From NCBI GenBank assembly GCA_964563085.1, contig CAZLVS010000002.1:62-64061 (forward strand): 64,000 nucleotides of DNA, in the 5' to 3' direction. Below are positions 3,861 to 51,290 of this stretch, in pieces (within the stretch, counting starts at the first letter, position 1; every line of letters begins with the position of its first letter). Origin of the DNA: an uncultured Ignavibacteria bacterium. GTDB lineage: Bacteria; Zixibacteria; MSB-5A5; UM-FILTER-46-8. The translations under genes were made by a program, and so were the position numbers. Under the pieces are notes generated by a model, which worked only from the letters and a program-made list of their open reading frames with translations, was not told the DNA's origin and did not search any database.

Positions 3861-4016
3861 CCCGGATAACTCATAAAACCGATTAATTCGCAGCCGAAGG
3901 TTTGTCCTTCGGGAGTTCAATAGAAGTAGATCATTTACAGATAGGAATTGAGTATCTCCAAGAAACGCCGGAAGCGCAAGACTTCCGCTACCGATAACGA
4001 TACTTGTGAATAATAT
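3861..4016 (-). repeat. ~155-bp intergenic repeat element (MITE-like), copy 1, inverted orientation
   Basis: Reverse complement matches the consensus seen at 12504, 22543, 26161, 31804, 38429 and 51133. Ends ctatattattcacaa / ggttttatgagttatccggg. Hairpins cggaagtcttgcgcttccg and ccgaaggacaaaccttcgg. Confidence 0.8.
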
Positions 4017-12503: not shown

Positions 12504-12663
12504 CCTGTATTGTTCATAAATTTCTTTATTGGTAGCGGAAGACTTGCGCTTCCGGCGTTTCTCTGAGAAACTCTATTCCAATCCGTAAATGACCTGCTTC
12601 TATTAAGCTCCCGAAGGACAAGCCTTCGGCTACGGATTAATGGGTTTTATGAATTATCCGGGT
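12504..12663 (+). repeat. ~155-bp intergenic repeat element, copy 3
   Basis: cctgtattgttcataaa…ggtagcggaagacttgcgcttccggcg…ctcccgaaggacaagccttcggctacggattaatgggttttatgaattatccggg. Confidence 0.8.
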
Positions 12664-17178: not shown

Positions 17179-17430
17179 TTACTTCAGCAGTATCATTCTT
17201 TTAACGAATTTCGAGTCTCCGGCGGTCATTCTATAGAAGTAAATTCCGCTGGCGAAGTTGGAAGCGTCCCAAGTTAATTTATGATACCCAGCTTCCTGTT
17301 GCGAACTAACCAATGTAGCTACCTTTCTACCTAAGATGTTGAACACATCCAGCCTAACATAGCTCTCCTCAGGTAACTGATATGAAATGGACGTTACGGC
17401 ATTAAAGGGATTAGGATAGTTATAATTCAT
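17179..17430 (-). pseudogene. orphan T9SS C-terminal sorting domain (gene remnant, 83 aa)
   Basis: ORF consists solely of MNYNYPNPFNAVTSISYQLPEESYVRLDVFNILGRKVATLV…SGIYFYRMTAGDSKFVKRMILLK. There is an in-frame stop 10 codons upstream of the Met and no cargo domain. Confidence 0.5.
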
Positions 17431-22432: not shown

Positions 22433-22542
22433 ATCGGTCAAGATATGGTCTGAATCGTATCAGATTCTTTGCACTAAAAGCAAGGGGGCGAAGCGGAGCG
22501 ATTCCTCCCGAGCTTCGTGCGCGGTTTTCGTCCCCGCAATAG

Positions 22543-22700
22543 CCTGTATTATTCATAAACTTCGTTATCAGCAGCGGAAGCCTTGCGCTTCCGGCGTCTT
22601 TTTGAAACCCTCAATTCCAGTCTGTATATGATCTACTTCAATTAAGCTCCCGAAGGACAAGCCTTCGGCTACGAATAAATTCTTTTCACGAATTATCCGA
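22543..22700 (+). repeat. ~155-bp intergenic repeat element, copy 5
   Basis: cctgtattattcataaac…agcggaagccttgcgcttccggcgtctttttgaaaccctcaattccagtctgtatatgatctacttc…cccgaaggacaagccttcggctacg…. Confidence 0.8.
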
Positions 22701-26160: not shown

Positions 26161-26315
26161 CCTGCATTATTCATAAATCCTATCACCGGTAGCGGAAGCC
26201 TTGCGCTTCCGGCGTCTTTTTGAAACCCTCAATTCCAGTCTGTATATGATCTACTTCTATTAAACTCTCGAAGGACAAGCCATCGGCTGCGGATGATGAG
26301 ATTTATGGATAATCC
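26161..26315 (+). repeat. ~155-bp intergenic repeat element, copy 6 (abuts IS fragment)
   Basis: cctgcattattcataaatcctatcaccggtagcggaagccttgcgcttccggcg…tctcgaaggacaagccatcggctgcgg…tttatggataatcc. Confidence 0.8.
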
Positions 26316-28958: not shown

Positions 28959-29114
28959 CTTGATACGTCACCAATTAATACTGCAGAATAAATCAATTGT
29001 CGAAACAACGCAAGATTTAATATGGGTCGTAAAATCCATTAAACTTTTTGGGATTTTACGGTGTCTGATTATATTGAGAGTAGAAGTCGAAAACCGCTAA
29101 TGAGGAGTTCGAAA

Positions 29115-31550
29115 ATGATAAACCGCAATATTACATGGTTATTATGTTGTTTATTTCTTGTTACCTTAGTTATCCAGGCAAACGCTGATTTATCCGAGGA
29201 TGTCATCAATCGGGATTTTCCCCCCATTTATGTATCAATAGTCACGCATAACGAAGAACCCCCGCAGTATCCCGATTTCACGGTTAACGAACCGGCTTTT
29301 TGGATTTACCGGGAGGCGGTTGTAGAATTTGCCGATATGCTTTTCGATGAAGGCGCAGCGTATAACTATCAATCGGAATGGAACTTCCTGCTGGCGGCAA
29401 CCATGTATGATACCGGTACGCCCTCCACTAACGGCAAAAATATATTGCGTTATTTAAAGGAGGATTTGGGCTTCGAGATCGATCCGCATGCCCATGAAAC
29501 CCAATACAATTATGCTGATGTTGCCTGTCTGATTGAGGAGCTGGGAGTGCCGACTTCATCGACGGTCGGCGGTTTTATCGCCTTCCCACCGGAAGATTCC
29601 AAACTTGAATACCTATGGCAGCCTCTATTCGGGTGGAATTATCCCCAGTTCACCTGGCAGGCGGAAATATTGTGGGGCGGCGCAACATATATGCATCAAA
29701 ACGAGGAAATGCTCTGGGTATCCGGTGTCTGGAAACCGAAGGATGATGGACATTTTCTTGAACACGACGAGAATGCTCCGCTGCCGCATATAGGAGGTTA
29801 TGCCGGAGGTTGGGAGGGATTATATGATTTACTGCAAAAGCAGCAGGATGGAGAGTTGGAAGAGGGTAAGATATATACAAAGACGATATTCGCCCCGCAA
29901 TCGAGGATGCTAAATCCGGAATATATCGAGGGGTTCCGCGCGGAAGTGCAGAACCTGGAAACATATACGCAGGCGGGATTGATCAGATGGGTCGGTTTGG
30001 CTGAAGTTATAGACATCTGGATCAACGAATACAATTCCGAACCGAATATGCTTCCATATACAGACGCGGAGGAAGTGTGGGTATACAATCCCACCAGCGG
30101 AGTGGACTTATACTGCCATATCCACCGTTCCGGCGATTTCGACAGCAATCTAACCTATCCCGGCGTGGTACTTATACCCGGCGGCAGCGGGGAGGGAACA
30201 TCATTCGACGCCAACGGACAGGCGGATGCCTTTGCGGATGCAGGTTTTATCGTCATGCATTTCGATCCCGACGGGAGAGGGCTGTCAACTAATGGCGGCC
30301 AGTATACCGAAGAGGATTACAACGGTTTCATTCAGCAGGACGGGTTAAGAGAGGTATTTCAATATCTTGTGGATTTGCCGGAGACCGATGATGACAACTG
30401 CGGCATGTTTTCCAATTCTTACGGGATAACTATGGCGGCGGGGACATTAGCTCGATATCCAACCAATCCCCACGCTAAATTCTTGATAGATTTTGAAGGA
30501 CCCCACAATCGGACTGTTACTGCCCAGATCAACGGCGGACATGTTCCCCATGATACCTCCGATGCGGAATTCTGGTCGGAGCGGGAAGCTGATCAATTTA
30601 TGCCGTCGGCAACTTGCTATTATACCAGAATACAGACTGTTATCGATCATAATCCGAACATAACCGATAACCGTCATGCCATCGCTCTGATTAATGCGGC
30701 AACCGATACTATCTTCGGCGGCGATGGAGTCTGTCCCTGGACGATTGCCAATGACGACATTATCAACGATCCCAATCAAGTTTACACTATTCAGGGACCT
30801 CCGTCATGGCTGCCGGAACAAGCTGACCATATCCCCTACCGTGTGAATAGATTGGAGGATATGGCGAATATGCCGCCGAATTACGTTTCCATCGGGATGA
30901 CACCCGATGAGGAACCGATAGTTGTTCCTCCGGGAGGTTATTTTACTTTCACAGGTATCCTCGCCAATCAAACAGACCAACCCAAAAATGCGGATGTATG
31001 GGTGATGGTTGATGTCCCCGGTTATGGGCTGTACGGGCCTGTTCAGAGATTTAATAATGTACCGCTGCAGCCGGAACAGATTATCAGCGTTGCTGGGGTG
31101 AGACAGAATATCCCCGGATCGGTCCCGGCAGGTAGCTATAATTATCTGGCATACAGCGGAGAATACCCAGCCGCGATTTTTGATTCCGCATGGTTTGAAT
31201 TCACGGTTGCATCGGAAGGCGCCGATAGGAACGTTGACGGCTGGGTCTTGGATGGGTGGTTTTCCAATCCCGATGAGACGGTTCCGGCTTCAATTGAATT
31301 GTCGAAGAACTATCCGAATCCTTTCAACGTCTCAACGAGTATCACCTTCAGCTTGCCGCAAGAATGTCATGTCAGCCTCCAAGTATATAACTTGATGGGA
31401 CAGAAGGTCGCCACACCGGTCGATGGACTTTTTGAAGCCGGACAACATAACGTTTCATGGGATGCATCGAATTACTCCAGCGGAGCTTATTTTTATAAAT
31501 TGGAAGTCGGCGATAAAGTGATCACGAAGCGGATGACGCTGCTCAAGTAA
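29115..31550 (+). CDS. T9SS-secreted multi-domain protein: N-terminal unknown domain + alpha/beta-hydrolase + shared ~105-aa module + T9SS C-terminal sorting domain
   Basis: Signal peptide after Met at 29115 (RBS gaggag). Hydrolase segment VVLIPGGSGEGTSFDANGQADAFADAGFIVMHFDPDGRG…FSNSYG. Module VSIGMTPDEEPIVVPPGGYFTFTGILANQ…DVWVMVDVPGYGLYGP…YNYLAYSGEYP…FEFTV. CTD NYPNPFNVSTSITFSLPQECHVSLQVYNLMGQKVAT…SGAYFYKLEVGDKVITKRMTLLK. Confidence 0.7.
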   Translation: MINRNITWLLCCLFLVTLVIQANADLSEDVINRDFPPIYVSIVTHNEEPPQYPDFTVNEPAFWIYREAVVEFADMLFDEGAAYNYQSEWNFLLAATMYDTGTPSTNGKNILRYLKEDLGFEIDPHAHETQYNYADVACLIEELGVPTSSTVGGFIAFPPEDSKLEYLWQPLFGWNYPQFTWQAEILWGGATYMHQNEEMLWVSGVWKPKDDGHFLEHDENAPLPHIGGYAGGWEGLYDLLQKQQDGELEEGKIYTKTIFAPQSRMLNPEYIEGFRAEVQNLETYTQAGLIRWVGLAEVIDIWINEYNSEPNMLPYTDAEEVWVYNPTSGVDLYCHIHRSGDFDSNLTYPGVVLIPGGSGEGTSFDANGQADAFADAGFIVMHFDPDGRGLSTNGGQYTEEDYNGFIQQDGLREVFQYLVDLPETDDDNCGMFSNSYGITMAAGTLARYPTNPHAKFLIDFEGPHNRTVTAQINGGHVPHDTSDAEFWSEREADQFMPSATCYYTRIQTVIDHNPNITDNRHAIALINAATDTIFGGDGVCPWTIANDDIINDPNQVYTIQGPPSWLPEQADHIPYRVNRLEDMANMPPNYVSIGMTPDEEPIVVPPGGYFTFTGILANQTDQPKNADVWVMVDVPGYGLYGPVQRFNNVPLQPEQIISVAGVRQNIPGSVPAGSYNYLAYSGEYPAAIFDSAWFEFTVASEGADRNVDGWVLDGWFSNPDETVPASIELSKNYPNPFNVSTSITFSLPQECHVSLQVYNLMGQKVATPVDGLFEAGQHNVSWDASNYSSGAYFYKLEVGDKVITKRMTLLK

Positions 31551-31594: not shown

Positions 31595-31803
31595 ACCCCT
31601 CTCCGGAGGGGGATGAAATGTAGCGGCGAGGGGGTATGTTTAACCCGCCATTGATTGATGACAAAGTAATCTTGCATATCAGAGATTCCGGACTTCAGTT
31701 CGGGGAGTTTCACGGTTCTTAATAACCGAGGACTTTGGTCCTCATAAGGTCATGTAGAGGAGTAGTATACAAGAAGGGTTAAAATCCGTCATTATTAAAA
31801 TAG

Positions 31804-31962
31804 CCTGTATTATTCACAAATTGAGTTATCGGCAGCGGAAGCCTTGCGCTTCCGGCGTCTTTTTGAAACCCTCAATTCCAGTCTGTATATGATCTACTTC
31901 TATTAAACTCCCGAAGGACAAACCTTCGGCTGCGGATTAATGCTGTTTGTGAAGTATCCGGG
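31804..31962 (+). repeat. ~155-bp intergenic repeat element, copy 7
   Basis: cctgtattattcacaaattgagttatcggcagcggaagccttgcgcttccggcgtctttttgaaaccctcaattccagtctgtatatgatctacttctattaaactcccgaaggacaaaccttcggctgcggattaatg…. Confidence 0.8.
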
Positions 31963-35604: not shown

Positions 35605-37032
35605 CTACTTAATTACCGTCATCCGTTTGGTAATTGTATTCCCATCGACGGTAAGCCTGTACAAATAGATTCCCGACGCTTCCCGGGATGCATCCCACGA
35701 AACCGAGTGATTTCCTTGTGACATACTGCGATTCGTCAGCATCTTTACCGATTCACCGAGGAGATTGAATATCTCAAGCTGAACGCTTGCGGCTTCAGGT
35801 ATTGTGAAATCAATTTCGGTTGTCGCATTAAACGGATTGGGACGATTAGTTATGAGGATGAAATCCTCCGGTTTTGCATTTCCCGAATCCGTGAACCAAT
35901 CACTCAAATCCCAGCTTCGAGCCGCGTTTTCAATCTTTGAAGTCACCGTAAACGGGAAGGAAACCTGAGCTGTTGCATCGTCAGGATAATCACCGCAGAA
36001 GGCGATATAATCATAGTCCCCCGCCGGCGCGTATCCCGGCACCTGCTGAACAATGCCTGCTTGAGTCAACGTTTGATAAGCTCCGATATAGATTTCATTA
36101 AAACGGTTCAACGGTCCATACATTCCATAACCGGGCACATCAAGCATTATCCAAATATCCGTGCTTTGCGGTGTATAGGTATTATTAATAAGTACACCCG
36201 TATAAGTGAACGAACCGCCCGCCGGCACTATAATCGGGGGATTATCCGGTATCATGTCTATCGAAAGAACCTGCGAACTCCAGCCGGAAACCGAAGCCAT
36301 CATCCACCACCAGGCTTTTCCCTTTTGATAACAGTTGAAACATTGGGAATGGGCACAACCACAAGAGGGGCAATCGTGAGTTTCACACCAATCATAACAC
36401 CATCCGCAGGCATCGCTCTCATAAGGGTAGTAATTACCATCAGGATCGTAGCTTTCTATGTCCGCAAAATCGAATAAAACCTTTTCGTTGACAGCGCAGT
36501 AGTCGCGTATCTGATTATTCCGCTGGTATAGATTCCCATCGGGACCGGAACCATCGAGGTGACCCGTCATGTAAATAAAGATCACGTCGGGATATTGACC
36601 TTCGAGTTCGTTCATCTTATTAAGATAGATATCTATACCCTCCGGTGTGTTATCGGAAACGCCTCCGCACCAGGAAAACATAGCCATATTACATCCCGGA
36701 TTAGCATCCAGATATTGCCTGGTGTGGGCAACCCAGGATGTATCGCCGTTATGCCCCAGATCGTCACTCCGTTCGTAGAAGTATGGTGGCGTGTAGACAG
36801 GAATTTCATCTTCTAATAAATTAATCCCTGTCATTATCTGGCTTCCGTGGGATGTATGAACATAATAGATATGATAATCATTAGTAATGGAATTTATTAC
36901 ATCCTCCGGGATGAGCTCGAATTCACCGGTTGATAGGTGATCCGCAATAATAGCATCGGCAAACGCCGCATTTGCAGGAATAAAGGAAACAAAAACAATT
37001 AAAAATAGAACCAATAGGCTTCTATTTGTCAT
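35605..37032 (-). CDS. T9SS-secreted protein: N-terminal unknown domain with Cys-rich cluster + shared ~105-aa module + T9SS CTD
   Basis: Signal peptide MTNRSLLVLFLIVFVSFIPANAAFA. Cys cluster CGWCYDWCETHDCPSCGCAHSQCFNCY. Module LSIDMIPDNPPIIVPAGGSFTYTGVLINNTYTPQSTDIWIMLDVPGYGMYGP…YDYIAFCGDYPDDA…FPFTV. CTD …NRPNPFNATTEIDFTIPEAASVQLEIFNLLGESV…SGIYLYRLTVDGNTITKRMTVIK. Confidence 0.7.
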   Translation of the reverse strand: MTNRSLLVLFLIVFVSFIPANAAFADAIIADHLSTGEFELIPEDVINSITNDYHIYYVHTSHGSQIMTGINLLEDEIPVYTPPYFYERSDDLGHNGDTSWVAHTRQYLDANPGCNMAMFSWCGGVSDNTPEGIDIYLNKMNELEGQYPDVIFIYMTGHLDGSGPDGNLYQRNNQIRDYCAVNEKVLFDFADIESYDPDGNYYPYESDACGWCYDWCETHDCPSCGCAHSQCFNCYQKGKAWWWMMASVSGWSSQVLSIDMIPDNPPIIVPAGGSFTYTGVLINNTYTPQSTDIWIMLDVPGYGMYGPLNRFNEIYIGAYQTLTQAGIVQQVPGYAPAGDYDYIAFCGDYPDDATAQVSFPFTVTSKIENAARSWDLSDWFTDSGNAKPEDFILITNRPNPFNATTEIDFTIPEAASVQLEIFNLLGESVKMLTNRSMSQGNHSVSWDASREASGIYLYRLTVDGNTITKRMTVIK

Positions 37033-38394: not shown

Positions 38395-38428
38395 TCATTA
38401 TCCGTAAATCTAAGCAGTTATGGTTTAG

Positions 38429-38586
38429 CCTGGATTATTCGTAAATTTGGAAATCGGAAGCGGAAGCCTTGTGCTTCCGGGGTTTCTCTGTAATCTTCTA
38501 TTCCAATCTGTAAATGCTCTATTTTTTATAAATCCCCGAAGGAATAGCCTTCGGTTACCGAATATCAGACTTTATGAATTATATAG
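38429..38586 (+). repeat. ~155-bp intergenic repeat element, copy 8 (more diverged)
   Basis: cctggattattcgtaaat…cggaagccttgtgcttccgg…ccccgaaggaatagccttcggttaccg…tttatgaattatat. Confidence 0.7.
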
Positions 38587-38699: not shown

Positions 38700-38860
38700 A
38701 GAGTGCCGTCCCCCGAAGTCATTGCGAGGAGCATAGCGACGAAGCAATCCACATACTCCGTAGCCGAAGCCTTGCCCTTCGGGATCACAGAACTATGTGC
38801 TGTCGGGTCACCGCACGCGTCATTGCGAGCAAAGCGAAGGCGACGTAGGACGGGTTCCGG
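38700..38860. repeat. pair of gtcattgcgag(c/g)a…agcga direct repeats flanking an inverted fragment of the ~155-bp element
   Basis: gtcattgcgaggagcatagcgacgaagcaatcc (38713-38745) and gtcattgcgagcaaagcgaaggcgacg (38820-38846). Between them ccgtagccgaagccttgcccttcggg is the reverse complement of the hairpin-2 segment of the repeat. Confidence 0.5.
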
Positions 38861-39438
38861 AATTCGGCGATAGCCGAATGGAGAAACCCGACACACTTGC
38901 TAAACGCCAAGCGTCCCATAGAGGATAGAGCTCGAAGGCATACTTCGGCCTTTTTGCATAACATTTAGTTCCCCGATCGGGAATATCCCCATTCCGAAAA
39001 TAATCACGTATGCTGAAAATAATCCGCAAGATATCCGCACTAAAACAAACTTAAGTTATGGATCAATGTAACAAAGCATTTCGAAACCGTTAATCCATAG
39101 CCTTAATAGGAAGAATGCTATGAAAGAAATTACTCGCTATAAGCCTATTACTCATTGGACTGAAACTATGTTAGGGTGGAATTTCCGCGTGGCGGTTTCA
39201 TTGCGGTATAATGCGAGGTTTGTCCATAAGCGCCAAAATTGTAGAAACACAAAAACATGAAAAGTCTGCAAGATTTATCGCTTTTAGCGAATTGTAATAG
39301 TTTGGAGTGAACCCAAATCTGTTTGGAGGTGAGTTAAGGAAATGAATAATTACAGGGATTCCCCCGGATATTGTCCTAATCGTGTAAAATGGGGGCGAAG
39401 GAAATTTGAGGTACTAATTTAATAATAAGGAGTTTAAG

Positions 39439-40461
39439 ATGTTAAGGAAATTAATTACATTATTATTAGCAATAATCATGGTGATTTTTGTTATTGGAAT
39501 GGCTCAAGCCACGGTTTATTCCTGCCGTGCTTTTCTTGAATATGAACTTGACCACTCCGGTATTCACGTAGAGTTCGAAGGTAACTGGGGTCATTACATC
39601 TGCCGCGGACTGTATGAGCATACATACACAGTCGAAAACGGTTATTGGATCTTAGAGTTTCCGTCTTGTTGGTACGACGTGTGCCTTACACCACCGGACA
39701 CAGCAAAGTGGGAAACCCTTTGCTGGGAAAATTCATATTTCCCGCCAGGGACCTATGACTGTCTTGAAAACGGCAAATGGGATACATTATGGGCTAAATT
39801 ACCGAGATTCGATATTGTTATGCATCCATATGATCCGCCGGTTGTAGTTCCACAATGCGGAAGCTTCAGGTATACTGGCATACTCAAAAATAATTATGGT
39901 ATGCCCGGTACTGTAGATGTCTGGATCGAAATCGGCGGACTATATGAAGCTAGGAAATTTTTGAATATTCCCATTGAAGGAAATCAAGAGATAATAGTCG
40001 AAAATATACGTCAAAGAGTCCCATGCTGGGTTCCACCCGATGTATATAGTTATTGCGTGTATGTCGGTGATTATCCTGATGATGTTATCGATTCTTACTG
40101 CTTCAATTTTACAGTCACGGAAGCGTTTGCCGGAGGCGGCGGAGTAAATGAATGGCAAGTTGATGCTTGGTTTGATTACGAAGCCGTATCAAAATCTTCA
40201 ACAACAAGCGTTTTGAGCAATACTCCCAATCCCTTCAACGCCACGACATCAATTATGTTTAATCTCACCGAGGAAACTGAGGTTAAGCTGGAGGTCTATG
40301 ACCTGCTGGGACGGAGGGTAGCAACGTTGGCGGATGGCGCTTACAACGCCGGCGAACATTCGGTCACCTGGGACGCTTCGGACTATTCCAGCGGTGTTTA
40401 TTTCTACCGGCTGGAAGCGGGCGATGAGGTGTTTACTAAACGTATGACTTTGCTTAAGTAG
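39439..40461 (+). CDS. T9SS-secreted protein: Cys-containing N-domain + shared ~105-aa module + T9SS CTD
   Basis: Signal peptide MLRKLITLLLAIIMVIFVIGMAQA. Module DIVMHPYDPPVVVPQCGSFRYTGILKNN…VDVWIEIGGLYE…YSYCVYVGDYPDDV…FNFTV. CTD …NTPNPFNATTSIMFNLTEETEVKLEVYDLLGRRVATL…SGVYFYRLEAGDEVFTKRMTLLK. Confidence 0.7.
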   Translation: MLRKLITLLLAIIMVIFVIGMAQATVYSCRAFLEYELDHSGIHVEFEGNWGHYICRGLYEHTYTVENGYWILEFPSCWYDVCLTPPDTAKWETLCWENSYFPPGTYDCLENGKWDTLWAKLPRFDIVMHPYDPPVVVPQCGSFRYTGILKNNYGMPGTVDVWIEIGGLYEARKFLNIPIEGNQEIIVENIRQRVPCWVPPDVYSYCVYVGDYPDDVIDSYCFNFTVTEAFAGGGGVNEWQVDAWFDYEAVSKSSTTSVLSNTPNPFNATTSIMFNLTEETEVKLEVYDLLGRRVATLADGAYNAGEHSVTWDASDYSSGVYFYRLEAGDEVFTKRMTLLK

Positions 40462-40540
40462 GGGAAAATATTATCCGGGTGGAACATTTCCGCCCGGGTA
40501 ATTGTAAGATGAATAGGAGGTATAACTAAAGGAGGATGCT

Positions 40541-41206
40541 ATGTATGTACGTTCGGTTTTTCTAACAGTGTTCCTGTGTGTGGGAATAATTTCATTAGCG
40601 GGGGCAAATCCGAGACCGGATACAACAGGAGGGTTTATTTTGGGTTACGCCTTTTTGGAGGATGGAGGGGAGTCCCCGGTTAGAGTGGATTTTGTATACC
40701 AATCAAATTCCTTACCTCATCAAGATTCTACAATCTTTACGATCACCGATTACTCCGGGTATTTCGAATTCTATTTCACCTGGACTGAAGCGGCCACTGA
40801 TTTCCTGTTGAAGTATTCACGTCGCGGATATCTGAGTGAAACAAGGTATTCCGATTATGTACCGGTGTGGTATAACGGGGAGTACTGGCGAATGGATTTT
40901 TCAACGGTAACTCTGGAATGTGATGATCGAATGGTGATAGGTGATGATCGAATACGGATAGGAAATGATCCCAATCCATTCAATCCCGCTACGTCTATCG
41001 AATTCGTTTTACCGGCGCAAGCTAATGTAAAGCTCGAGATATATGACATCATGGGGCGGAAAGTGGCTGCACTGGCGGACGGCGCTTACGATGCCGGCAG
41101 GCATACAGTGAGTTGGGATGCTTCGGATCAATCCAGCGGGGTTTATTTCTACCGGCTGGAAGCGGGTGATAAGGTCGTTACGAAACGGATGACGCTGTTG
41201 AAGTAA
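40541..41206 (+). CDS. small T9SS-secreted protein (carboxypeptidase-regulatory-like core?) with 5' and 3' ends near-identical to the next gene
   Basis: RBS aaaggagga. Signal MYVRSVFLTVFLCVGIISLAGANP. CTD …DPNPFNPATSIEFVLPAQANVKLEIYDIMGRKVAALADGAYDAGRHTVSWDASDQSSGVYFYRLEAGDKVVTKRMTLLK. Confidence 0.65.
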   Translation: MYVRSVFLTVFLCVGIISLAGANPRPDTTGGFILGYAFLEDGGESPVRVDFVYQSNSLPHQDSTIFTITDYSGYFEFYFTWTEAATDFLLKYSRRGYLSETRYSDYVPVWYNGEYWRMDFSTVTLECDDRMVIGDDRIRIGNDPNPFNPATSIEFVLPAQANVKLEIYDIMGRKVAALADGAYDAGRHTVSWDASDQSSGVYFYRLEAGDKVVTKRMTLLK

Positions 41207-41217
41207 AGGAGTAACGG

Positions 41218-41249
41218 GTTGTTCGGATGGAATGCTCCATCCGAACAAC
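41218..41249 (+). terminator. 13-bp perfect hairpin (gttgttcggatgg aatgct ccatccgaacaac) between the two tandem cargo genes
   Basis: Seen directly. No T-tract. Confidence 0.4.
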
Positions 41250-41288
41250 TGCTTAATCAGATAAGAGGTACTACAAAAGGAGGATGCT

Positions 41289-42242
41289 ATGTATGTACGT
41301 TCGGTTTTTCTAACAGTGTTCCTGTGTGTAGGAATAGTTTCATTAGCGGGGGCAAATCCGCTTCCCGGTAATCCAGTGGAGTACAATGTGGATATTTTAT
41401 ATCCAACGGACGACGCTCGAATTAAAATGAGTAAGCCGGATACGAATTACGGCTCGAATTCAAATCTTTGGATAAGGAATAGATATGGGTCGCCATACCA
41501 TCCGGACCACTGGGAAAGCGACGCACTGCTGAAATTCGACTTATCCAATCTTCCCCCCGATGCAAACATAAACTCGGCGACTTTGAATATGTACTATTAT
41601 TACTGGAAAGATAACAATCCCACCGGGAGGGAGTTAACGGCGTATAAGATCATCGAAGACTGGGATGAAATGACGGTTACCTTCAATAACCAGCCATCTA
41701 CTGCGCCGGAACTGTCAGCGAGTTCGACCGTGCCTGCCGATTACGGTTGGATGAGCTGGGATGTTTCCGAAGACGTCCAGGATTATGTCAATGGACAGAC
41801 TGAGAATTATGGGTGGAAAATCATGGATGAGGAGTACTGGGGGCAGTACAATATCCCCAGGATATATTTCTACACGAAAGAGTGGGAGACTGCCGAGTTC
41901 ATTCCTTTTCTCGAAATCAGCTACTCAGGGGAGGAGCCAACGTCTATATCCATTGAGATGGCTCCCCATGATAATCCCGCTGCAGTCCAGCTTCACGCTA
42001 ATTATCCCAATCCGTTCAATCCCGCTACGTCTATCGAATTCGTTTTACCGGCGCAAGCTAATGTAAAGCTCGAGATATATGACATCATGGGGCGGAAAGT
42101 GGCTGCACTGGCGGACGGCGCTTACGATGCCGGCAGGCATACAGTGAGTTGGGATGCTTCGGATCAATCCAGCGGGGTTTATTTCTACCGGCTGGAAGCG
42201 GGTGATAAGGTCGTTACGAAACGGATGACGCTGTTGAAGTAA
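41289..42242 (+). CDS. T9SS-secreted DNRLRE-domain protein
   Basis: Signal MYVRSVFLTVFLCVGIVSLAGANP. Core …DDARIKMSKPDTNYGSNSNLWIRN…ALLKFDLSNLPPDANINSATLNMYYYY…TVTFNNQPS… matches the DNRLRE-domain pattern (sDxxyGsxxxLxV.…LLkFDLSsLP.ga.ItsAtLxLy…wxEstVTwNNqP). CTD identical to the previous gene over ~235 nt. Confidence 0.65.
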   Translation: MYVRSVFLTVFLCVGIVSLAGANPLPGNPVEYNVDILYPTDDARIKMSKPDTNYGSNSNLWIRNRYGSPYHPDHWESDALLKFDLSNLPPDANINSATLNMYYYYWKDNNPTGRELTAYKIIEDWDEMTVTFNNQPSTAPELSASSTVPADYGWMSWDVSEDVQDYVNGQTENYGWKIMDEEYWGQYNIPRIYFYTKEWETAEFIPFLEISYSGEEPTSISIEMAPHDNPAAVQLHANYPNPFNPATSIEFVLPAQANVKLEIYDIMGRKVAALADGAYDAGRHTVSWDASDQSSGVYFYRLEAGDKVVTKRMTLLK

Positions 42243-42388
42243 GTCTGTGGGTTTATTTTGCCGTCGGGCGTTCTCACCCGATCCCGATTTTATCTGGGCG
42301 CCAGGTCGAATGACCTGGCGCCGCTTTTCGGTGCTGTCGGGCTCCTGCAAATGTGGCGTCGGGCCGCCGCACCCGACAGATTCATATT

Positions 42389-44662
42389 TTATTTAAGCAG
42401 CGTCATCCGCTTGGTGATTACATTGTCGCCAGCGCTTAGCTTATAGAAATAAACTCCGCTGGAGAAGCTGGCAGCATCCCAGGTTACAGTATGCTGTCCG
42501 GCAACCTTATTGCCGTTCACCAGTGTAGCGACTCTCTGTCCCATCAAGTTGTACACTTCCAAACTTACTTCCCCGGCTTCCGGCAAGCTAAAGCTGATAT
42601 TGGTGGAAGCATTGAACGGATTAGGATAGTTGGTCTGCAATCCATACTCGGTAGGAATAATTTCGCTTCCGAAGAACTCGCCTTCGATCGACCATTCGGC
42701 GGCGCCGTCAGCGATCCTGGCTCCTGCCACCGTGAACGGGAAAGAGGCGCTGTCGCAGACCTCATCGGGGCGATCGCCGCAATATGCCATATAGGTGTAT
42801 GTACCCAAGGGCGCAAATCCCGGCACATTCTGCCACGTATGCGCAGTCATCGACTCGCCCGGGTCTAACGGGATATTATTGAACGCAAACTGCTGGAAGA
42901 AATCACCCAGGTAGATCACTCCGCCCCAGACGTCCGTGGTAATCGGGTCATCGGTAGGATTACCGATGTAGCCGGTTAAACCGAAGCGGCCGCCCGGTTC
43001 AACTATAACGGGGTCATCGTCGGGAGTCATATCAACATCGCAGCAGGGTCCGCATTCCAGACCGCAATAGCCGTACCAGGTTCCGCCGGGACCGTCGGTT
43101 CCGGTAAAGAGTTTTTCACAGGTTACCGACAGAGTCCATCCCCAGCTGCTCGACCAACCGTTAGGAATGTTGAAAGTCTCAACATAAGTGCCGTCAAACT
43201 CATAGACATGAACGTCACCGCCGTCTTCCCATGTGAACAGGTTACAGCCGTTGGTGGCGATGCAGAATTCGAATCCCCAACCGTTGGTGGTAAATCCATA
43301 CATGGTATCCACCAGCTCGCAGGTTTCGAAATCAATTACCCAGACTGTGCCTCCGCTATGCTCGTACATTAAATTAGCAGCGGGATCGTAACATACTTTA
43401 GCCTGATAATCATGGAATACTCCGCTGCAAACAAGGTTGTATGTGCCGGCTTCCGGATCTATCTGATAGAGGTCAGTTCCATAAATCTTCACGTAGAATT
43501 GACCGTCATTCGGGTTGAAGAAGATAGCCCTCATGTCCAGCGTCAAGCTGACCTGACCCAGACTATTGCCTTCCAGATCGAATTTCTCCACAGCGCCCAG
43601 ACTGCTGATGCCGCCATTGACGGAGTACATATACTCATCGTTACACGCTATGGACATCAAGGTGACGTCGAGGCTGTTTGTAAAGGTCATGCATTCTTCC
43701 GGAGTATAATCGAGTATATCGCTTACCTGCGATTCATTAGCCGGTGAGAGCGCATAACTCGGGGATGCCGCAGTATTCACCATAGCGGCTTCCCATCCAC
43801 CTTCAATCGCCCAGTTCTCGGCGCCGTTTCTAAAGGAACCCGCGGTTACCGTGAACTCAAACATAGCGGAATCGCAAGCCTCGGGTTTCTCCCCGGAAAA
43901 GGCGATATAGGTATAGGTACCGGAAGGGGCAAATACCGGTACGCTCTGATTAAGATGAGCGGATAATTCCTCTCCGGGATCAAGCGGTATGTTGCCGAAA
44001 TTCCAGAGCTGGAAAAAATCACCCAGGTAGATAACTCCCACCCATACATCTGTAACGATCGGATCGGGATTGGGATTGGCGATATAACCGGTCAATCCGA
44101 AAGTACCGCCGGGCGGAACCATCACGGGATCATCATCGGGAACCATATCCACATCGCTGCAGAGTGTTTCCTCATATTCGAAGTCATCGATGGTATAGAA
44201 ATTTCCGGAATTATGCATCAACACATAGTCTATGCCATCGGCATTAATTTCCAGAAAGTCGTTCTGTCCGTAGTTATCTGGTCCCGATATCGATGCTAAC
44301 AGATTGTCATCGGAATCATATCCTTCCAGGTAAAACATAGAACCGGTTCCCGCGGTATACCAAACGCCTACATGGTTGGTCGGATCTTCAAAGTCGACCC
44401 TGATAGTGTTATCCGAATCGGTAAAAAGCACCTGGTTTCCCGAATGCGGCGGGTAGCCGGTATTGTTATATCCATAGACAACAGATTCAAGGATTGTCGC
44501 ATCGGGACCGAAAAACAGTCCTTCATAAAAGTCGCCCAGGTTTTGATCGCCGCCGAAATACCAATAGGTTTCGGGTACGTCCTCAAGATCGAGAACGGTC
44601 AACGCGTTTACTGTTCCAAAGGCAAACAGAACAATACAGATAGTTGTTAAAACACTTTTCAT
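42389..44662 (-). CDS. large T9SS-secreted protein with two copies of the shared ~105-aa module, a central beta-propeller-like region and T9SS CTD
   Basis: Signal MKSVLTTICIVLFAFGTVNA. Module copies VDMVPDDDPVMVPPGGTFGLTGYIANP…DVWVGVIYLGDF…YTYIAFSGEKPE…FEFTV and VDMTPDDDPVIVEPGGRFGLTGYIGNP…DVWGGVIYLGDF…YTYMAYCGDRPD…FPFTV. CTD …NYPNPFNASTNISFSLPEAGEVSLEVYNLMGQRVATL…SGVYFYKLSAGDNVITKRMTLLK. Confidence 0.7.
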   Translation of the reverse strand: MKSVLTTICIVLFAFGTVNALTVLDLEDVPETYWYFGGDQNLGDFYEGLFFGPDATILESVVYGYNNTGYPPHSGNQVLFTDSDNTIRVDFEDPTNHVGVWYTAGTGSMFYLEGYDSDDNLLASISGPDNYGQNDFLEINADGIDYVLMHNSGNFYTIDDFEYEETLCSDVDMVPDDDPVMVPPGGTFGLTGYIANPNPDPIVTDVWVGVIYLGDFFQLWNFGNIPLDPGEELSAHLNQSVPVFAPSGTYTYIAFSGEKPEACDSAMFEFTVTAGSFRNGAENWAIEGGWEAAMVNTAASPSYALSPANESQVSDILDYTPEECMTFTNSLDVTLMSIACNDEYMYSVNGGISSLGAVEKFDLEGNSLGQVSLTLDMRAIFFNPNDGQFYVKIYGTDLYQIDPEAGTYNLVCSGVFHDYQAKVCYDPAANLMYEHSGGTVWVIDFETCELVDTMYGFTTNGWGFEFCIATNGCNLFTWEDGGDVHVYEFDGTYVETFNIPNGWSSSWGWTLSVTCEKLFTGTDGPGGTWYGYCGLECGPCCDVDMTPDDDPVIVEPGGRFGLTGYIGNPTDDPITTDVWGGVIYLGDFFQQFAFNNIPLDPGESMTAHTWQNVPGFAPLGTYTYMAYCGDRPDEVCDSASFPFTVAGARIADGAAEWSIEGEFFGSEIIPTEYGLQTNYPNPFNASTNISFSLPEAGEVSLEVYNLMGQRVATLVNGNKVAGQHTVTWDAASFSSGVYFYKLSAGDNVITKRMTLLK

Positions 44663-49476: not shown

Positions 49477-51123
49477 ATGATATTTAATTACAGATTGCTT
49501 GGCTATCATCGCATCACTCTTGTGGTTTCGCTTACAGTTATTTTGACCATATTTATTTCATCCGATTCTACATCAAGGGGATTTTCACACGAAAGTGATT
49601 TCTGTAATAACTGGGAAGTATACAAAAGAGATCAGATAAAGAAATATGGGAGATTGTACGATCCATGCTATAATGGAGACTGTGATATCCCCAGAAATCG
49701 TAATGAATCAATACCGGAACCCGATGACCCATATTTGTATATTCGCCTGTATTTCAATATCTTCTGTGAAGATGACGGCAGCAACTGCGGCACAACCGAG
49801 TCAATACTCGACCTGCAGATAAGGGAACTCAATAGCGCATTCTCTCCCTCAAGAATCCAGTTTGTTTATGATCATACCTTCATAAACTCAACGGAGTATA
49901 GATATAATCCAGATGTGGAACAGATGAAAAGTATTTATGCCCGGGCTCCCGAATATCAGCTTAATGTATACATTACTGAGGGCGCCGGTTCTTTTGGAAC
50001 ATATCCCTGGGACGACGTAAGATTACCGCTTTCCGATCAGGGCGGTATAGTTATACGTCACGATCGTATTTATCCGGCTCCATATTACGATAATACACTG
50101 GCACATGAAATCGGTCACTGTCTTGGATTATGGCATACATTCCACGGTGTATTTGAAGTACCGGAGTGCGGAGACTGTTATGAAATGGCAAATGGGGAAG
50201 ATGCCGATGTTACCGGAGATCTCTGTTCGGATACGCCGCCGACTCCACGAAACTACGATTGCCGAGATCCAGGCGGTGTCGATCCCTGCTGCGATACTCC
50301 ATGGGGGGAAACGTCTCCTCAAAATTATATGAGCTACAGCGCTCTGGGAGGAACTCCCTGCTGGACCGAGTTTACGCCGCAGCAATGGGGACGGATGCAT
50401 TGCTGGATTGATGCCGTTCTTTCCGGCTGGATTCAATCCGCCGGCTCACAATTGTCTATTGCAATGATCCCGGATGAAAATCCGATTGAAGTTATGCCGG
50501 GCGAGCAGTTCGGGCTTACAGGAATTTTGACAAACAACGGAGACAGCAGCGAAACAGCGGATGTCTGGATAATGCTGATTGCGCCGGAAATAGGGGAACA
50601 TGGTCCCCTACATACTTTCCATGACATCTCCCTACAACCGGGGCAAACAATCAATGCGCACCTTAATCAGCAGGTGCCGATAAACGCCCCATTAGGCATA
50701 TATGATTACATTGCAAACGCAGGAGATTTTCCCGATACAATTTACGATGCTGATACATTTCAATTCACAGTATTTCAGAATTCCGAACAAGGAGATTTCA
50801 GCGATCATAATCGGAGGTGGGTTCTGAGGGGAGGTTTCGACCGGAGTGTATCAAACCTAAAGAGCTTACAAAATGTCAGAAACTATCCTAATCCATTTAA
50901 TTCTTTTACCGAGATATCATTCCAGCTTATTGATGATTCCTATATCGAAATAACTGTTTTTGATATCCTGGGAAGACGAGTTGCAGCGCTTGCCAAAGGT
51001 AACTATAACGCTGGTGCGCACAATATCCGTTGGGATGCGTCAAACCAGCCGTCAGGTATATATTTCTATCGACTGAGTACACCCAATGAGGCTGAAACCA
51101 ATAGAATCACATTAATTAGATAA
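49477..51123 (+). CDS. T9SS-secreted M43-family (pappalysin/ulilysin-like) zinc metalloprotease + shared ~105-aa module + T9SS CTD
   Basis: Extended zinc motif HEIGHCLGLWHTFHG (HExxHxxGxxH, as in ulilysin HEIGHWLGLYHTF). Cys-rich catalytic domain. Module LSIAMIPDENPIEVMPGEQFGLTGILTNN…DVWIMLIAPEIGEHGP…YDYIANAGDFPDTI…FQFTV. CTD …NYPNPFNSFTEISFQLIDDSYIEITVFDILGRRVAAL…SGIYFYRLSTPNEAETNRITLIR. Confidence 0.7.
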   Translation: MIFNYRLLGYHRITLVVSLTVILTIFISSDSTSRGFSHESDFCNNWEVYKRDQIKKYGRLYDPCYNGDCDIPRNRNESIPEPDDPYLYIRLYFNIFCEDDGSNCGTTESILDLQIRELNSAFSPSRIQFVYDHTFINSTEYRYNPDVEQMKSIYARAPEYQLNVYITEGAGSFGTYPWDDVRLPLSDQGGIVIRHDRIYPAPYYDNTLAHEIGHCLGLWHTFHGVFEVPECGDCYEMANGEDADVTGDLCSDTPPTPRNYDCRDPGGVDPCCDTPWGETSPQNYMSYSALGGTPCWTEFTPQQWGRMHCWIDAVLSGWIQSAGSQLSIAMIPDENPIEVMPGEQFGLTGILTNNGDSSETADVWIMLIAPEIGEHGPLHTFHDISLQPGQTINAHLNQQVPINAPLGIYDYIANAGDFPDTIYDADTFQFTVFQNSEQGDFSDHNRRWVLRGGFDRSVSNLKSLQNVRNYPNPFNSFTEISFQLIDDSYIEITVFDILGRRVAALAKGNYNAGAHNIRWDASNQPSGIYFYRLSTPNEAETNRITLIR

Positions 51124-51132
51124 AAACCTTAG

Positions 51133-51290
51133 TCTGTATTCTTCACAAATCCTATCACCGGCAGCGGGAGATTTGCGCTTCCGGCGTTTCTTTGTAATCC
51201 TCAATTCCAATCCGTAGATGACCTGCTTCTATTGAACTCCCGAAAGACAAGCCTTTGATGCGGGTTAATGGGTTTTATGAATTATCCGGG
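51133..51290 (+). repeat. ~155-bp intergenic repeat element, copy 9
   Basis: tctgtattcttcacaaatcctatcaccggcagcgggagatttgcgcttccggcg…ctcccgaaagacaagcctttgatgcgggttaatgggttttatgaattatccggg. Confidence 0.75.

What the first reader, a model, noticed from the sequence alone, without database searches (positions are those of the whole stretch)
40520..42245. Tandem secretion genes with near-identical 5' (RBS + signal peptide) and 3' (CTD) cassettes but unrelated cores
40520-40605 and 41265-41350 are identical except for two bases. The 3' ~235 nt (40969-41206 vs 42004-42242) differ by a single base. The cores between them encode unrelated domains: a CarbopepD-reg-like domain in one, a DNRLRE domain in the other. 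A 13-bp perfect hairpin separates the genes. This is the signature of recent gene conversion or cassette-style domain swapping between secretion-signal and sorting-signal 'bookends'. It could also be an assembly collapse. The neighbouring CTDs of genes 39439, 42389 and 29115 are clearly more diverged, so the identity here is not merely CTD conservation.
Basis: seen in the sequence. Interest (0 to 1): 0.6.

Follow-up and report, generated by a model that had tools for sequence, protein, structure and literature searches.

The report
Tandem secreted-protein genes with homogenised ends
Two neighbouring genes for secreted proteins in a Zixibacteria genome share almost identical export-signal and sorting-signal sequences around unrelated middles, most likely because the two copies recombined with each other, which is a known process and not a new kind of system.

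Summary
Gene1 (40541-41206) and gene2 (41289-42242) share an 85-nt ribosome-binding-site and signal-peptide segment with 2 mismatches. They also share a 237-nt type-A T9SS C-terminal domain (CTD) segment with 1 mismatch. Other CTD pairs in the window are 46-72% identical. The cores are unrelated: gene2 has a DNRLRE/CBM96 domain, and gene1's core is an orphan.

The identity is not due to selection, because CTDs are the fastest-diverging parts between orthologues (85% against the sister MAG contig L001). It is not a fresh whole-gene duplication, because the spacers upstream of the two genes are only 61% identical. Those spacers still fold into homologous hairpins with four compensatory pair changes.

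L001 lacks exactly the 1036-bp unit bounded by the CTD repeats. A distant genome (L006) has a homologous array of a gene0-like gene plus two DNRLRE genes. There, CTD-spacer-signal-peptide blocks are 95% identical, and a 99-nt tract is 100% identical up to the stop codon.

An independent k=31 assembly of run SRR7048228 breaks exactly where the 5' repeat begins. Best reading: recurrent gene conversion or unequal recombination in an old tandem array of T9SS cargo genes. Assembly effects cannot be fully excluded without reads. The mechanism is ordinary, and interest is modest.

The parts
39439..40461 (+). gene0: first gene of the tandem array. 340 aa with a signal peptide, an unnamed ~110-aa domain and a T9SS type-A CTD. 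Its CTD is 72% identical to the gene1 and gene2 CTDs.
   Evidence: ORF. Por_Secre_tail/TIGR04183. CTD identity. 45% identical over its full length to geneA of the L006 array.
40470..40502 (+). Y hairpin: a 15-pair intercistronic stem-loop 9 nt after the gene0 stop. The whole Y spacer plus RBS (40462-40540) is 79/79 identical in L001.
   Evidence: Fold -25.3 kcal/mol, z=-3.3. Conservation.
40528..40612 (+). 5' cassette, copy 1: RBS AAAGGAGG, the start codon at 40541, and signal peptide MYVRSVFLTVFLCVGIISLAGA followed by NP.
   Evidence: 85 nt with 2 mismatches to 41276-41360. The 54-nt exact core occurs 2 times against 0 expected.
40541..41206 (+). gene1: 221-aa T9SS cargo made of a signal peptide, an orphan all-beta core and a CTD.
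   Evidence: Orthologue P0001 at 88% amino-acid identity in Zixibacteria MAG GCA_014730175.1.
40613..40969 (+). core1: 119 aa with no assignable family. It contains a 21-nt tandem duplication at 40920-40961 just before the CTD.
   Evidence: No Pfam hit at E<=10. Only P0001 is a real homologue in 1.84e9 representatives. AlphaFold pLDDT 46.8, strands only. Repeat D7.
40970..41206 (+). 3' cassette, copy 1: type-A CTD from PNPFN to the TAA stop.
   Evidence: 237 nt with 1 mismatch (40978) to 42006-42242. Only 85% identical to the orthologous CTD in L001.
41207..41275 (+). X spacer, containing a 15-pair hairpin at 41217-41250. It is an old paralogue of Y.
   Evidence: Fold -28.2 kcal/mol, z=-4.0. 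X and Y are 61% identical, and the alignment score beats 1000 of 1000 shuffles. Stem comparison: 4 compensatory double changes, 2 wobble-to-Watson-Crick changes, 0 disruptions.
41276..41360 (+). 5' cassette, copy 2: RBS plus signal peptide of gene2.
41289..42242 (+). gene2: 317-aa T9SS cargo made of the same signal peptide, a DNRLRE/CBM96 domain (aa 37-210), a 13-residue stub of a deleted middle domain, and a CTD.
   Evidence: NF033679 at 114 bits and PF24517 at 93 bits. Alignment to P0079 and P0081 shows 'ISIEMAPHDNPAAVQ' is the start of their middle domain. P0002 is the same protein on a 155-kb NCBI contig.
42006..42242 (+). 3' cassette, copy 2: CTD of gene2.
42243..42268 (+). Z: 26 nt after the gene2 stop. 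It is homologous to the 26 nt after the gene1 orthologue's stop in L001, which marks the right edge of the 1036-bp indel.
   Evidence: blastn aligns L001 7736-8004 to window 42000-42268. In the 30 nt after the stop, L1 is 67% identical to W2 and 27% identical to W1.
42297..42332 (+). Canonical intrinsic terminator (11-pair GC-rich stem plus T-run) after gene2. It is the likely end of a gene0-gene1-gene2 transcript.
   Evidence: fold.

Best explanation
**What it is.** Gene1 and gene2 are adjacent members of an old tandem array (gene0, gene1, gene2) of Sec- and T9SS-exported cargo genes on a Zixibacteria chromosome. In such arrays the segments that every member shares are the CTD, the hairpin-containing spacer, the RBS and the signal peptide. 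These shared segments act as substrates for general homologous recombination between neighbours.

**How it arose.** In this genome, non-reciprocal recombination (gene conversion) recently overwrote both ends of one gene with the other gene's sequence.
- The flanks of the CTD and the signal peptide are at orthologue level to L001's gene1. This suggests gene1 was mostly the donor and gene2 the recipient.
- The tract edges coincide with the edges of homology: the RBS and 'A-N-P' at the 5' end, and 'PNPFN' and 'KRMTLLK-stop' at the 3' end.
- The unrelated cores could not be converted.

**Consequences.**
- The two proteins now carry the same export and sorting signals.
- The 237-nt direct repeats make the unit [X spacer, signal peptide, core2, CTD] (1036 bp) excisable by CTD-by-CTD crossover. 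The sister genome L001 has exactly that deletion.

**Shown versus inferred.**
- Shown: the repeat anatomy, the age contrast between ends and spacers, the unit indel, and the parallel case in L006.
- Inferred: the recombination pathway, the donor direction, loss rather than gain in L001, and co-transcription with the hairpins acting as intercistronic RNA elements.
For: 1. CTD1 and CTD2 match at 236/237 nt. Other CTD pairs are 46-72% identical.
2. Between the window and L001, by segment:
   - cores: 91-95% identical;
   - CTDs: only 85-89% identical.
   Purifying selection therefore cannot explain 99.6%.
3. X and Y are significantly homologous but only 61% identical, with 4 compensatory stem changes. 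The block CTD0-Y-SP aligns to CTD1-X-SP2 at 74.6% over 410 nt. The array is therefore old and the identical ends are young.
4. L001 reads gene0, gene1, Z, with no X, second signal peptide or core2. The sequence after its gene1 stop matches the sequence after the window's gene2 stop. A degenerate signal-peptide pattern finds only one copy in that genome.
5. L001's gene1 CTD is mosaic. A central ~70-nt tract is gene0-type at 11 of 14 informative sites, against 6 of 32 outside it (permutation p about 0.014).
6. L006 holds a homologous array: geneA is 45% identical to gene0, and two DNRLRE genes are 48-53% identical to gene2.
   - [CTD_A, spacer, SP_B start] is 95-96% identical to [CTD_B, spacer, SP_C start] over about 420 nt.
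   - CTD_B and CTD_C are 100% identical over the last ~99 nt up to the stop codon, and 40-65% identical before it.
   - Two assemblies give the same sequence.
7. Gene2 keeps its own consensus CTD start, 'LHANY', outside the identical tract. This argues that it had a CTD of its own that was overwritten.
8. Logan contig SRR7048228_51229 equals window 38864-40557. It ends exactly at 40527+30, the predicted k=31 unitig break at the 5' repeat.
9. No recombinase, transposase or reverse transcriptase lies in the 64-kb window. This is consistent with general recombination.
Against: - There is only one assembly of the window and no read data. The 228-nt exact repeat exceeds usual k-mer sizes. The three surviving mismatches all lie near repeat edges, which is also what consensus collapse of slightly different copies would leave. 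The true identity could therefore be somewhat lower.
- The identity runs right up to the stop codon, with unrelated sequence immediately after. This is awkward for two-sided homology-dependent conversion. Diverged CTDs share only 12-26-nt exact runs as anchors.
- For the 5' cassette, timing cannot be resolved. The two window copies differ by 2 of 85 nt, and each differs from the L001 orthologue by only 3 of 85 nt (sequences).
- Loss in L001 versus gain in the window rests on one distant comparator and on an incomplete MAG.
Confidence: 0.65

Rival explanations
1. Recent birth of a chimeric gene. Gene1 was duplicated in tandem, and the copy's core was replaced by a DNRLRE core from elsewhere. 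This would be true cassette-style domain swapping between ready-made signal-peptide and CTD ends.
For: - Both ends are near-identical at the same time, and the boundaries coincide with domain borders.
- Identity stops sharply at the stop codon.
- Gene2 is absent from L001.
- Core2 has a higher GC3 (56%) than core0 and core1 (39-42%).
- Gene2 lacks the middle domain that its closest homologues have, so a rearrangement did occur at its 3' junction.
Against: - A recent tandem duplication should make X a near-copy of Y, but they are 61% identical with compensatory changes.
- Gene2 retains its own CTD-consensus start 'LHANY' and its own 'NPxP' after the signal peptide.
- Adjacency of a gene0-like gene and DNRLRE genes is conserved in the distant L006 array, so gene2 looks ancestral to the locus.
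- No donor core closer than 48% identity exists in 5.8 billion proteins.
Confidence: 0.17
2. Assembly artefact. One version is that gene2 lies elsewhere, or in another strain, and the assembler threaded the contig through a shared CTD repeat. The other version is that two moderately similar ends were collapsed to one consensus, so the near-identity is exaggerated.
For: - The source is a metagenome-assembled contig.
- The exact repeat of 228 nt is longer than common k-mers.
- Mismatches survive only near the repeat edges.
- L001 shows gene1 followed directly by Z.
- No reads were available.
Against: - X is unique sequence that must physically join a CTD end to a signal-peptide start.
- Both ORFs are intact, with matched RBS sequences.
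- The independent Logan k=31 contig breaks exactly at the predicted repeat entry, so the 5' cassette has two upstream contexts in the raw data.
- The same biology is seen at 95% identity, and is therefore safe from collapse, in L006. Two assemblies of L006 agree.
Confidence: 0.12
3. Nucleotide-level purifying selection keeps the two ends identical, without any recombination. The selective reason might be shared translation-initiation or secretion requirements.
For: The Y spacer plus RBS is 79/79 identical, and the signal peptide 96% identical, between the window and L001. These values are higher than for neighbouring coding sequence, so the 5' region is under unusual constraint.
Against: - CTDs are the fastest-evolving segments between orthologues, at 85-89%.
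- Synonymous sites are identical across 79 CTD codons but for one.
- X, immediately upstream of the 5' cassette, is only 61% identical to Y.
Confidence: 0.03

Closest known systems
Tandem paralogue clusters diversified by homologous recombination at conserved segments: the Staphylococcus aureus lpl cluster (Tsuru & Kobayashi 2008, PMC2568036)
   Same: - Tandem genes for exported proteins recombine at a conserved stretch shared by all members.
- The segment '3' end of one ORF, intergenic region, 5' end of the next ORF' behaves as a unit. This is seen directly in L006 and, as an older paralogy, in the window.
- Genomes differ by whole-unit deletions or duplications.
   Different: - In lpl the conserved recombination site is central and the ends are variable. 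Here the ends are conserved and the centre is an unrelated domain.
- The comparison set here is three contigs, not ten or more complete genomes.
Porphyromonas gingivalis T9SS cargo RgpA, Kgp and HagA: modular domain rearrangement and allelic exchange (PMC5266723)
   Same: - T9SS cargo proteins with a Sec leader and a conserved ~80-aa CTD.
- Recombination or gene conversion shuffles the modules between them.
- Adjacent CTD-bearing genes occur (PG0410 and PG0411).
   Different: - There the exchanged modules are adhesin domains, among homologous multi-domain proteins at dispersed loci, and between strains.
- Here the homogenised parts are the targeting signals themselves, between adjacent genes with unrelated passengers, in an uncultured FCB-group phylum.
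Surface-lipoprotein multigene families with a conserved 5' UTR and signal peptide and variable mature regions, such as Mycoplasma vsp, vlp and vpma (from my own knowledge; the papers listed were not read)
   Same: A nearly invariant 5' cassette (RBS plus signal peptide) heads otherwise divergent tandem genes and serves as a recombination substrate.
   Different: - Those systems use site-specific recombinases or promoter switching for phase variation.
- No recombinase, invertible element or single-promoter logic is evident here.
CBM96 / DNRLRE domain (PMC9971899; title and abstract start only)
   Same: The gene2 core matches PF24517 and NF033679 well above their cut-offs.
   Different: The characterised CBM96 is an alginate-binding module inside a lyase. 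Gene2 has no catalytic domain, and its ligand is unknown.

Membership tests
T9SS type-A cargo protein | C-terminal ~75-80-aa type-A sorting domain (TIGR04183 / PF18962) at the extreme C-terminus | tested here: met
   Gene1: 43.5 bits against a cut-off of 23 (TIGR04183) and 36.1 against 27 (PF18962). Gene2: 46.9 and 40.1 bits. Both end in KRMTLLK followed by the stop.
T9SS type-A cargo protein | N-terminal Sec signal peptide | tested here: inconclusive
   The sequence shows an n-region (R4), a hydrophobic core (VFLTVFLCVGI[IV]SL) and an A-G-A motif before NP. No signal-peptide predictor was available.
T9SS type-A cargo protein | T9SS machinery (PorK/L/M/N, Sov, PorU/V) encoded in the same genome, and actual secretion | not testable with these tools
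   Only a 64-kb window was available. It holds 10 CTD ORFs but no machinery genes were identified.
DNRLRE / CBM96 domain protein (gene2) | Match to NF033679 / PF24517 above the curated cut-off over most of the model | tested here: met
   NF033679: 114.2 bits against a cut-off of 34, covering model positions 1-163 of 164. PF24517: 93.2 bits against a cut-off of 26.
   No Pfam hit at E<=10. hhalign against the window's own CarbopepD_reg_2 domain aligned 12 columns with probability 0.2%. The structure model was too poor to search.
Concerted evolution / gene conversion between tandem paralogues | Paralogous segments within a genome are more similar than the orthologous segment between genomes | tested here: met
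   CTD1 against CTD2 is 99.6%. CTD1 against its L001 orthologue is 85%. For the 5' cassette the test is inconclusive (97.6% against 96.5%).
Concerted evolution / gene conversion between tandem paralogues | Sequence adjoining the identical tracts is homologous but much older, which rules out a recent whole-unit duplication | tested here: met
   X and Y are 61% identical, the homology is significant, and there are compensatory stem changes. CTD0-Y-SP against CTD1-X-SP2 is 74.6%.
Concerted evolution / gene conversion between tandem paralogues | Mosaic tracts with discrete boundaries in related arrays | tested here: met
   The L001 CTD has a central tract with p about 0.014. L006 CTD_B and CTD_C are 100% identical over the last ~99 nt, against 40-65% upstream.
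Integron gene cassette (attC-bounded) | Imperfect attC hairpin with the order RYYYAAC ... GTTRRRY and extrahelical bases, plus an integron integrase nearby | tested here: not met
   The X and Y stems are near-perfect and read GTTGTTC...GAACAAC and ATTATCC...GGGTAAT, which is the wrong order and motif. No integrase is in the window.
Assembly artefact (collapsed or chimeric repeat) | Read pairs or long reads fail to support the tandem path; repeat coverage is not doubled | not testable with these tools
   No reads were available. Indirect evidence against it: the Logan k=31 contig ends exactly at 40557.

The most novel reading that the evidence does not exclude
The block 'CTD, hairpin spacer, RBS, signal peptide' is a portable recombination module. 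It would let these bacteria plug unrelated passenger domains into a ready-made export and sorting frame. Whole cargo units such as the 1036-bp [X, signal peptide, core2, CTD] unit would pop out and re-insert at any gene with a matching CTD, and the array itself would relocate. It sits in three unrelated genomic contexts in the window, L001 and L006. On this reading it is a homology-driven cassette system for the T9SS secretome, with the conserved hairpins possibly acting as recombination or processing sites.
Probability: 0.1. Interest if true: 0.6.

Novelty: new member of a known kind. Interest (0 to 1): 0.3.

Why it matters
- **Sorting signals can be misread.** T9SS sorting signals and signal peptides can be the most recombinogenic parts of cargo genes. 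CTD phylogenies and CTD-based orthology calls in FCB-group genomes can therefore be misleading.
- **Assembly hazard.** Such loci are traps for short-read assembly and binning.
- **Route to secretome turnover.** Unrelated passengers acquire identical targeting signals, and whole genes are gained or lost by recombination between the resulting direct repeats.
- **Scope.** It does not open a new mechanism.

Tried and rejected
**Searches that found little or nothing**
- Exact-product look-ups for gene1, gene2, P0002 and the 757-aa neighbour: not on record.
- Degenerate signal-peptide DNA pattern. In GTDB genomes it hit only L001's contig. In JGI metagenomes it hit nothing. No other cores between the same bookends were found.
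- Protein searches found no signal-peptide-only hits.
- A gene0-core protein search found only itself. A gene0/geneA profile scan of metagenomes found only the L007 contig.

**Characterising gene1's core**
- CarboxypepD_reg assignment: rejected.
- AlphaFold on a 2-sequence alignment gave pLDDT 46.8, so no fold search was run.
- The representative-library hits P0194-P0197 are sums of many weak repeat matches, not homologues.

**Other explanations considered**
- P0004, a cupredoxin cargo from the same SRA sample, as donor of the central CTD tract: only 70% identical there, rejected.
- Integron attC reading of the hairpins: wrong motif order and no integrase, rejected.
- tRNA and Rfam scans of the window: nothing found.
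- Recombinase, transposase or reverse transcriptase in the window: none.
- Recent whole-unit tandem duplication: rejected by the X/Y divergence.
- Foreign origin of core2 by composition: GC3 of 56% is within the window's range, so this is not informative.
Full report
**The observation**

Two + strand ORFs lie head to tail: gene1 (40541-41206, 221 aa) and gene2 (41289-42242, 317 aa).
- **5' repeat.** In the correct register (offset 748), 40528-40612 and 41276-41360 differ at 2 of 85 bases. These segments hold the RBS AAAGGAGG, the start codon, the 22-residue signal peptide and the first two mature codons.
- **3' repeat.** At offset 1036, 40970-41206 and 42006-42242 differ at 1 of 237 bases. These segments run from PNPFN to the TAA stop.
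The second 5' copy was given 3 nt off, and the hairpin has about 15 pairs rather than 13.
- **Background.** The window contains ten ORFs with a T9SS type-A CTD. Every other pair is 46-72% identical over 240 nt, so the identity is far beyond family conservation.

**The proteins**
- Both genes end in a type-A sorting domain above the curated thresholds.
- Gene2's core is a DNRLRE/CBM96 domain (114 and 93 bits).
- Gene1's 119-aa core has no family:
  - no Pfam hit at E<=10;
  - one real homologue among 1.84 billion representatives, its orthologue P0001;
  - a low-confidence, all-strand AlphaFold model;
  - only a 12-residue motif shared with a true CarboxypepD_reg domain.
- The two cores are unrelated (BLASTP E=8.8).

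**The array is old and the identical ends are young**

Gene0 (39439-40461) is a third CTD-bearing gene immediately upstream. After the gene0 stop and after the gene1 stop lie spacers Y (40462-40527) and X (41207-41275). Each has a 15-pair hairpin about 10 nt after the stop, and a shared GAGGTA...AAGGAGG motif before the next start codon.
- X and Y are significantly homologous but only 61% identical.
- In register, their stems differ by four compensatory double changes and two wobble-to-Watson-Crick changes, with no disruption.
- BLAST aligns the whole block CTD0-Y-SP1 with CTD1-X-SP2 at 74.6% over 410 nt.

A recent duplication of the gene1 unit would have made X a near-copy of Y. Instead, 98-99.6% identity is confined to the signal-peptide and CTD segments and drops abruptly outside them.

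**Selection does not explain it**

The sister contig L001 comes from Zixibacteria MAG GCA_014730175.1. It aligns to window 39016-41205 at 90%. Identity by segment:

| Segment | Identity, window vs L001 |
|---|---|
| gene0 core | 94.8% |
| CTD0 | 89.3% |
| Y + RBS | 100% (79/79) |
| signal peptide | 95.8% |
| core1 | 90.8% |
| CTD1 | 85.2% |

- CTDs are thus the fastest-diverging parts between genomes, yet the two CTDs within the window differ by one synonymous base.
- For the 5' cassette the timing is unresolved. The two window copies differ by 2 of 85 nt, and each differs from L001 by 3 of 85 nt (sequences).

**A unit indel bounded by the repeats**
- L001 carries gene0 and gene1 but no X, no second signal peptide and no DNRLRE core.
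- The 26 nt after its gene1 stop match the 26 nt after the window's gene2 stop (Z, 42243-42268). They do not match X.
- The two genomes therefore differ by exactly one 1036-bp unit whose ends fall within the CTD repeat. This is the product expected from CTD-by-CTD crossover.
- A degenerate signal-peptide pattern finds a single copy in that genome.
- L001's own gene1 CTD is mosaic. A central ~70-nt tract is gene0-type at 11 of 14 informative sites, against 6 of 32 outside it (maximum chi-square, permutation p about 0.014).

**A second, independent example**

The closest homologue of gene2 is P0079. It sits in L006, in a three-gene array:
- geneA is 45% identical to gene0 over its full length.
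- geneB and geneC are both DNRLRE plus CTD, and are 53% and 48% identical to gene2.

In that array:
- [CTD_A, spacer with hairpin, RBS, first 14 codons of SP_B] is 95-96% identical to [CTD_B, spacer, RBS, start of SP_C] over about 420 nt. The cores differ.
- CTD_B and CTD_C are 100% identical over the last ~99 nt up to the stop codon. They are 40-65% identical upstream of that tract and 37% just after the stop.
- An ENA assembly and a JGI assembly give the same sequence. At 95% identity this repeat is not prone to collapse.

Two conclusions follow.
- Homogenisation of CTD, spacer and signal-peptide segments between neighbouring cargo genes recurs in this kind of array, including tracts that end sharply at the stop codon.
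- Adjacency of a gene0-like gene and DNRLRE genes is ancient. The absence of gene2 from L001 is therefore better read as loss than as gain in the window.

**Direction and boundaries**
- The outer parts of the shared CTD are at orthologue-level identity to L001's gene1 CTD: 92% over the first 98 nt and 92% over the last 75 nt. Gene1 was probably the donor for those parts.
- Gene2 keeps its own consensus CTD start 'LHANY' just outside the tract. It also keeps a 13-residue stub ('IEMAPHDNPAAVQ') of the middle domain that P0079 and P0081 have between DNRLRE and CTD. Gene2 therefore had its own CTD and suffered a separate internal deletion.
- Across the window's CTDs, the first and last 27 nt are the most conserved (58-61%, against 43-52% inside). 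These ends hold most of the longest exact runs shared between diverged copies, 12-17 nt.
- This offers a partial explanation for why tracts span exactly the domain. Such anchors are short, however, and the sharp edge at the stop codon remains the weakest point of a simple conversion model.

**Is the assembly real?**

No reads could be mapped. Points in favour of the tandem arrangement:
- X is unique sequence that joins a CTD end to a signal-peptide start.
- Both ORFs are intact.
- An independent Logan assembly of SRR7048228 contains a contig identical to window 38864-40557. Its last base is 40527+30, exactly where a k=31 unitig must stop on entering the repeat that begins at 40528. The 5' cassette therefore has two upstream contexts in raw data.

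Remaining caveats:
- The 228-nt exact CTD repeat exceeds common k-mers.
- All three surviving mismatches lie near repeat edges, which is also what bubble-popping would leave.
- The order of the cores, and the true interior identity, need read-level confirmation.

**Context**
- The window is chromosomal. It carries ParA/ParB, tgt, thiamine genes and fpg, interspersed with cargo genes.
- It encodes no recombinase, transposase or reverse transcriptase.
- No tRNA or Rfam family was found.
- A canonical terminator follows gene2. This suggests one gene0-gene2 transcript with intercistronic hairpins, which is an inference.

**Comparison with known cases**

The process matches recombination-driven evolution of tandem paralogue clusters. 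Tsuru & Kobayashi (PMC2568036) described the unit '3' end, intergenic region, 5' end of the next ORF' in S. aureus lpl. Dashper et al. (PMC5266723) described modular rearrangement among P. gingivalis T9SS cargo. The differences here are:
- the targeting signals themselves are what gets homogenised;
- the passenger domains are unrelated;
- the host is an uncultured Zixibacteria lineage. No paper in the library links Zixibacteria and T9SS.

**Verdict**

This is a real and well-delimited example of segmental concerted evolution in a T9SS cargo array, with a repeat-bounded gene loss in a sister genome. The mechanism is ordinary, so I class it as a new member of a known kind, with interest 0.3. The cassette-system reading, in which cargo units are mobilised through their bookends, is not excluded but has no direct support.

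Noticed in passing
window 22538-22670, 31799-31931, 26172-26290, 12504-12640, 3886-4000 (-), 51160-51260; fragments at 38426-38480 and 38757-38784: A ~130-nt intergenic repeat family with at least 6 copies in 64 kb, each just 3' of a gene. It has two conserved hairpins: GCGGAAGCCTTGCGCTTCCGGC followed by a T-run (terminator-like), and CCCGAAGGACAAGCCTTCGG. Copies are 84-96% identical. There is no Rfam match.
   Followed up: partly
window 17182-17424 (-): An orphan ORF that is essentially a CTD alone ('MNYNYPNPFNAVTSISY...KRMILLK'). It has in-frame stops just upstream, no signal peptide and no passenger. It may be a relic of a deletion between CTDs, or a silent donor.
   Followed up: no
window 39016-42268; L001 5789-8004; L006 6874-11296: The cargo array sits in unrelated genomic neighbourhoods in all three genomes. 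The flanks are tgt and a 757-aa cargo gene in the window, TPR-CHAT and MatE in L001, and glutamine synthetase and a GDSL lipase in L006. The window and L001 blocks are 90% identical, yet nothing else in L001's 12 kb matches the 64-kb window. Possible causes are relocation, horizontal transfer or MAG chimerism.
   Followed up: partly
window 40462-40540 = L001 7235-7312: The Y spacer with its hairpin, plus the RBS, is 79/79 identical between the two genomes, while flanking coding sequence is 85-96% identical. This suggests a constrained RNA element, or a recent exchange.
   Followed up: partly
window 40920-40961: A 21-nt tandem duplication (GTGATGATCGAATGGTGATAG / GTGATGATCGAATACGGATAG, encoding DDRMVIG / DDRIRIG) in the gene1 linker just before the CTD. 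It is also present in L001.
   Followed up: no
window gene0 aa ~125-230; 42389-44662 (-) twice (42854-43049 and 43970-44165); also 29061-31550, 35605-37032, 49477-51123 and near 63697: A recurrent ~110-aa domain ('D/E-M-x-P-D-D-x-P-V-x-V-P-x-G-G-x-F ... N-I-P-L-x-P-G ... Y-x-A-Y-x-G-D ... D-S-x-x-F-x-F-T-V') sits immediately before the CTD in many cargo proteins. It has no Pfam model. Gene2 retains only its first 13 residues.
   Followed up: partly
window 42243-42388: The 146-nt convergent intergenic region between gene2 and the 757-aa gene folds very stably (-66.5 kcal/mol, z=-3.9). A long-range stem (GTCTGTGGG...CCCGACAGA) encloses the terminator hairpin, and the TGTCGGG motif is repeated.
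   Followed up: no
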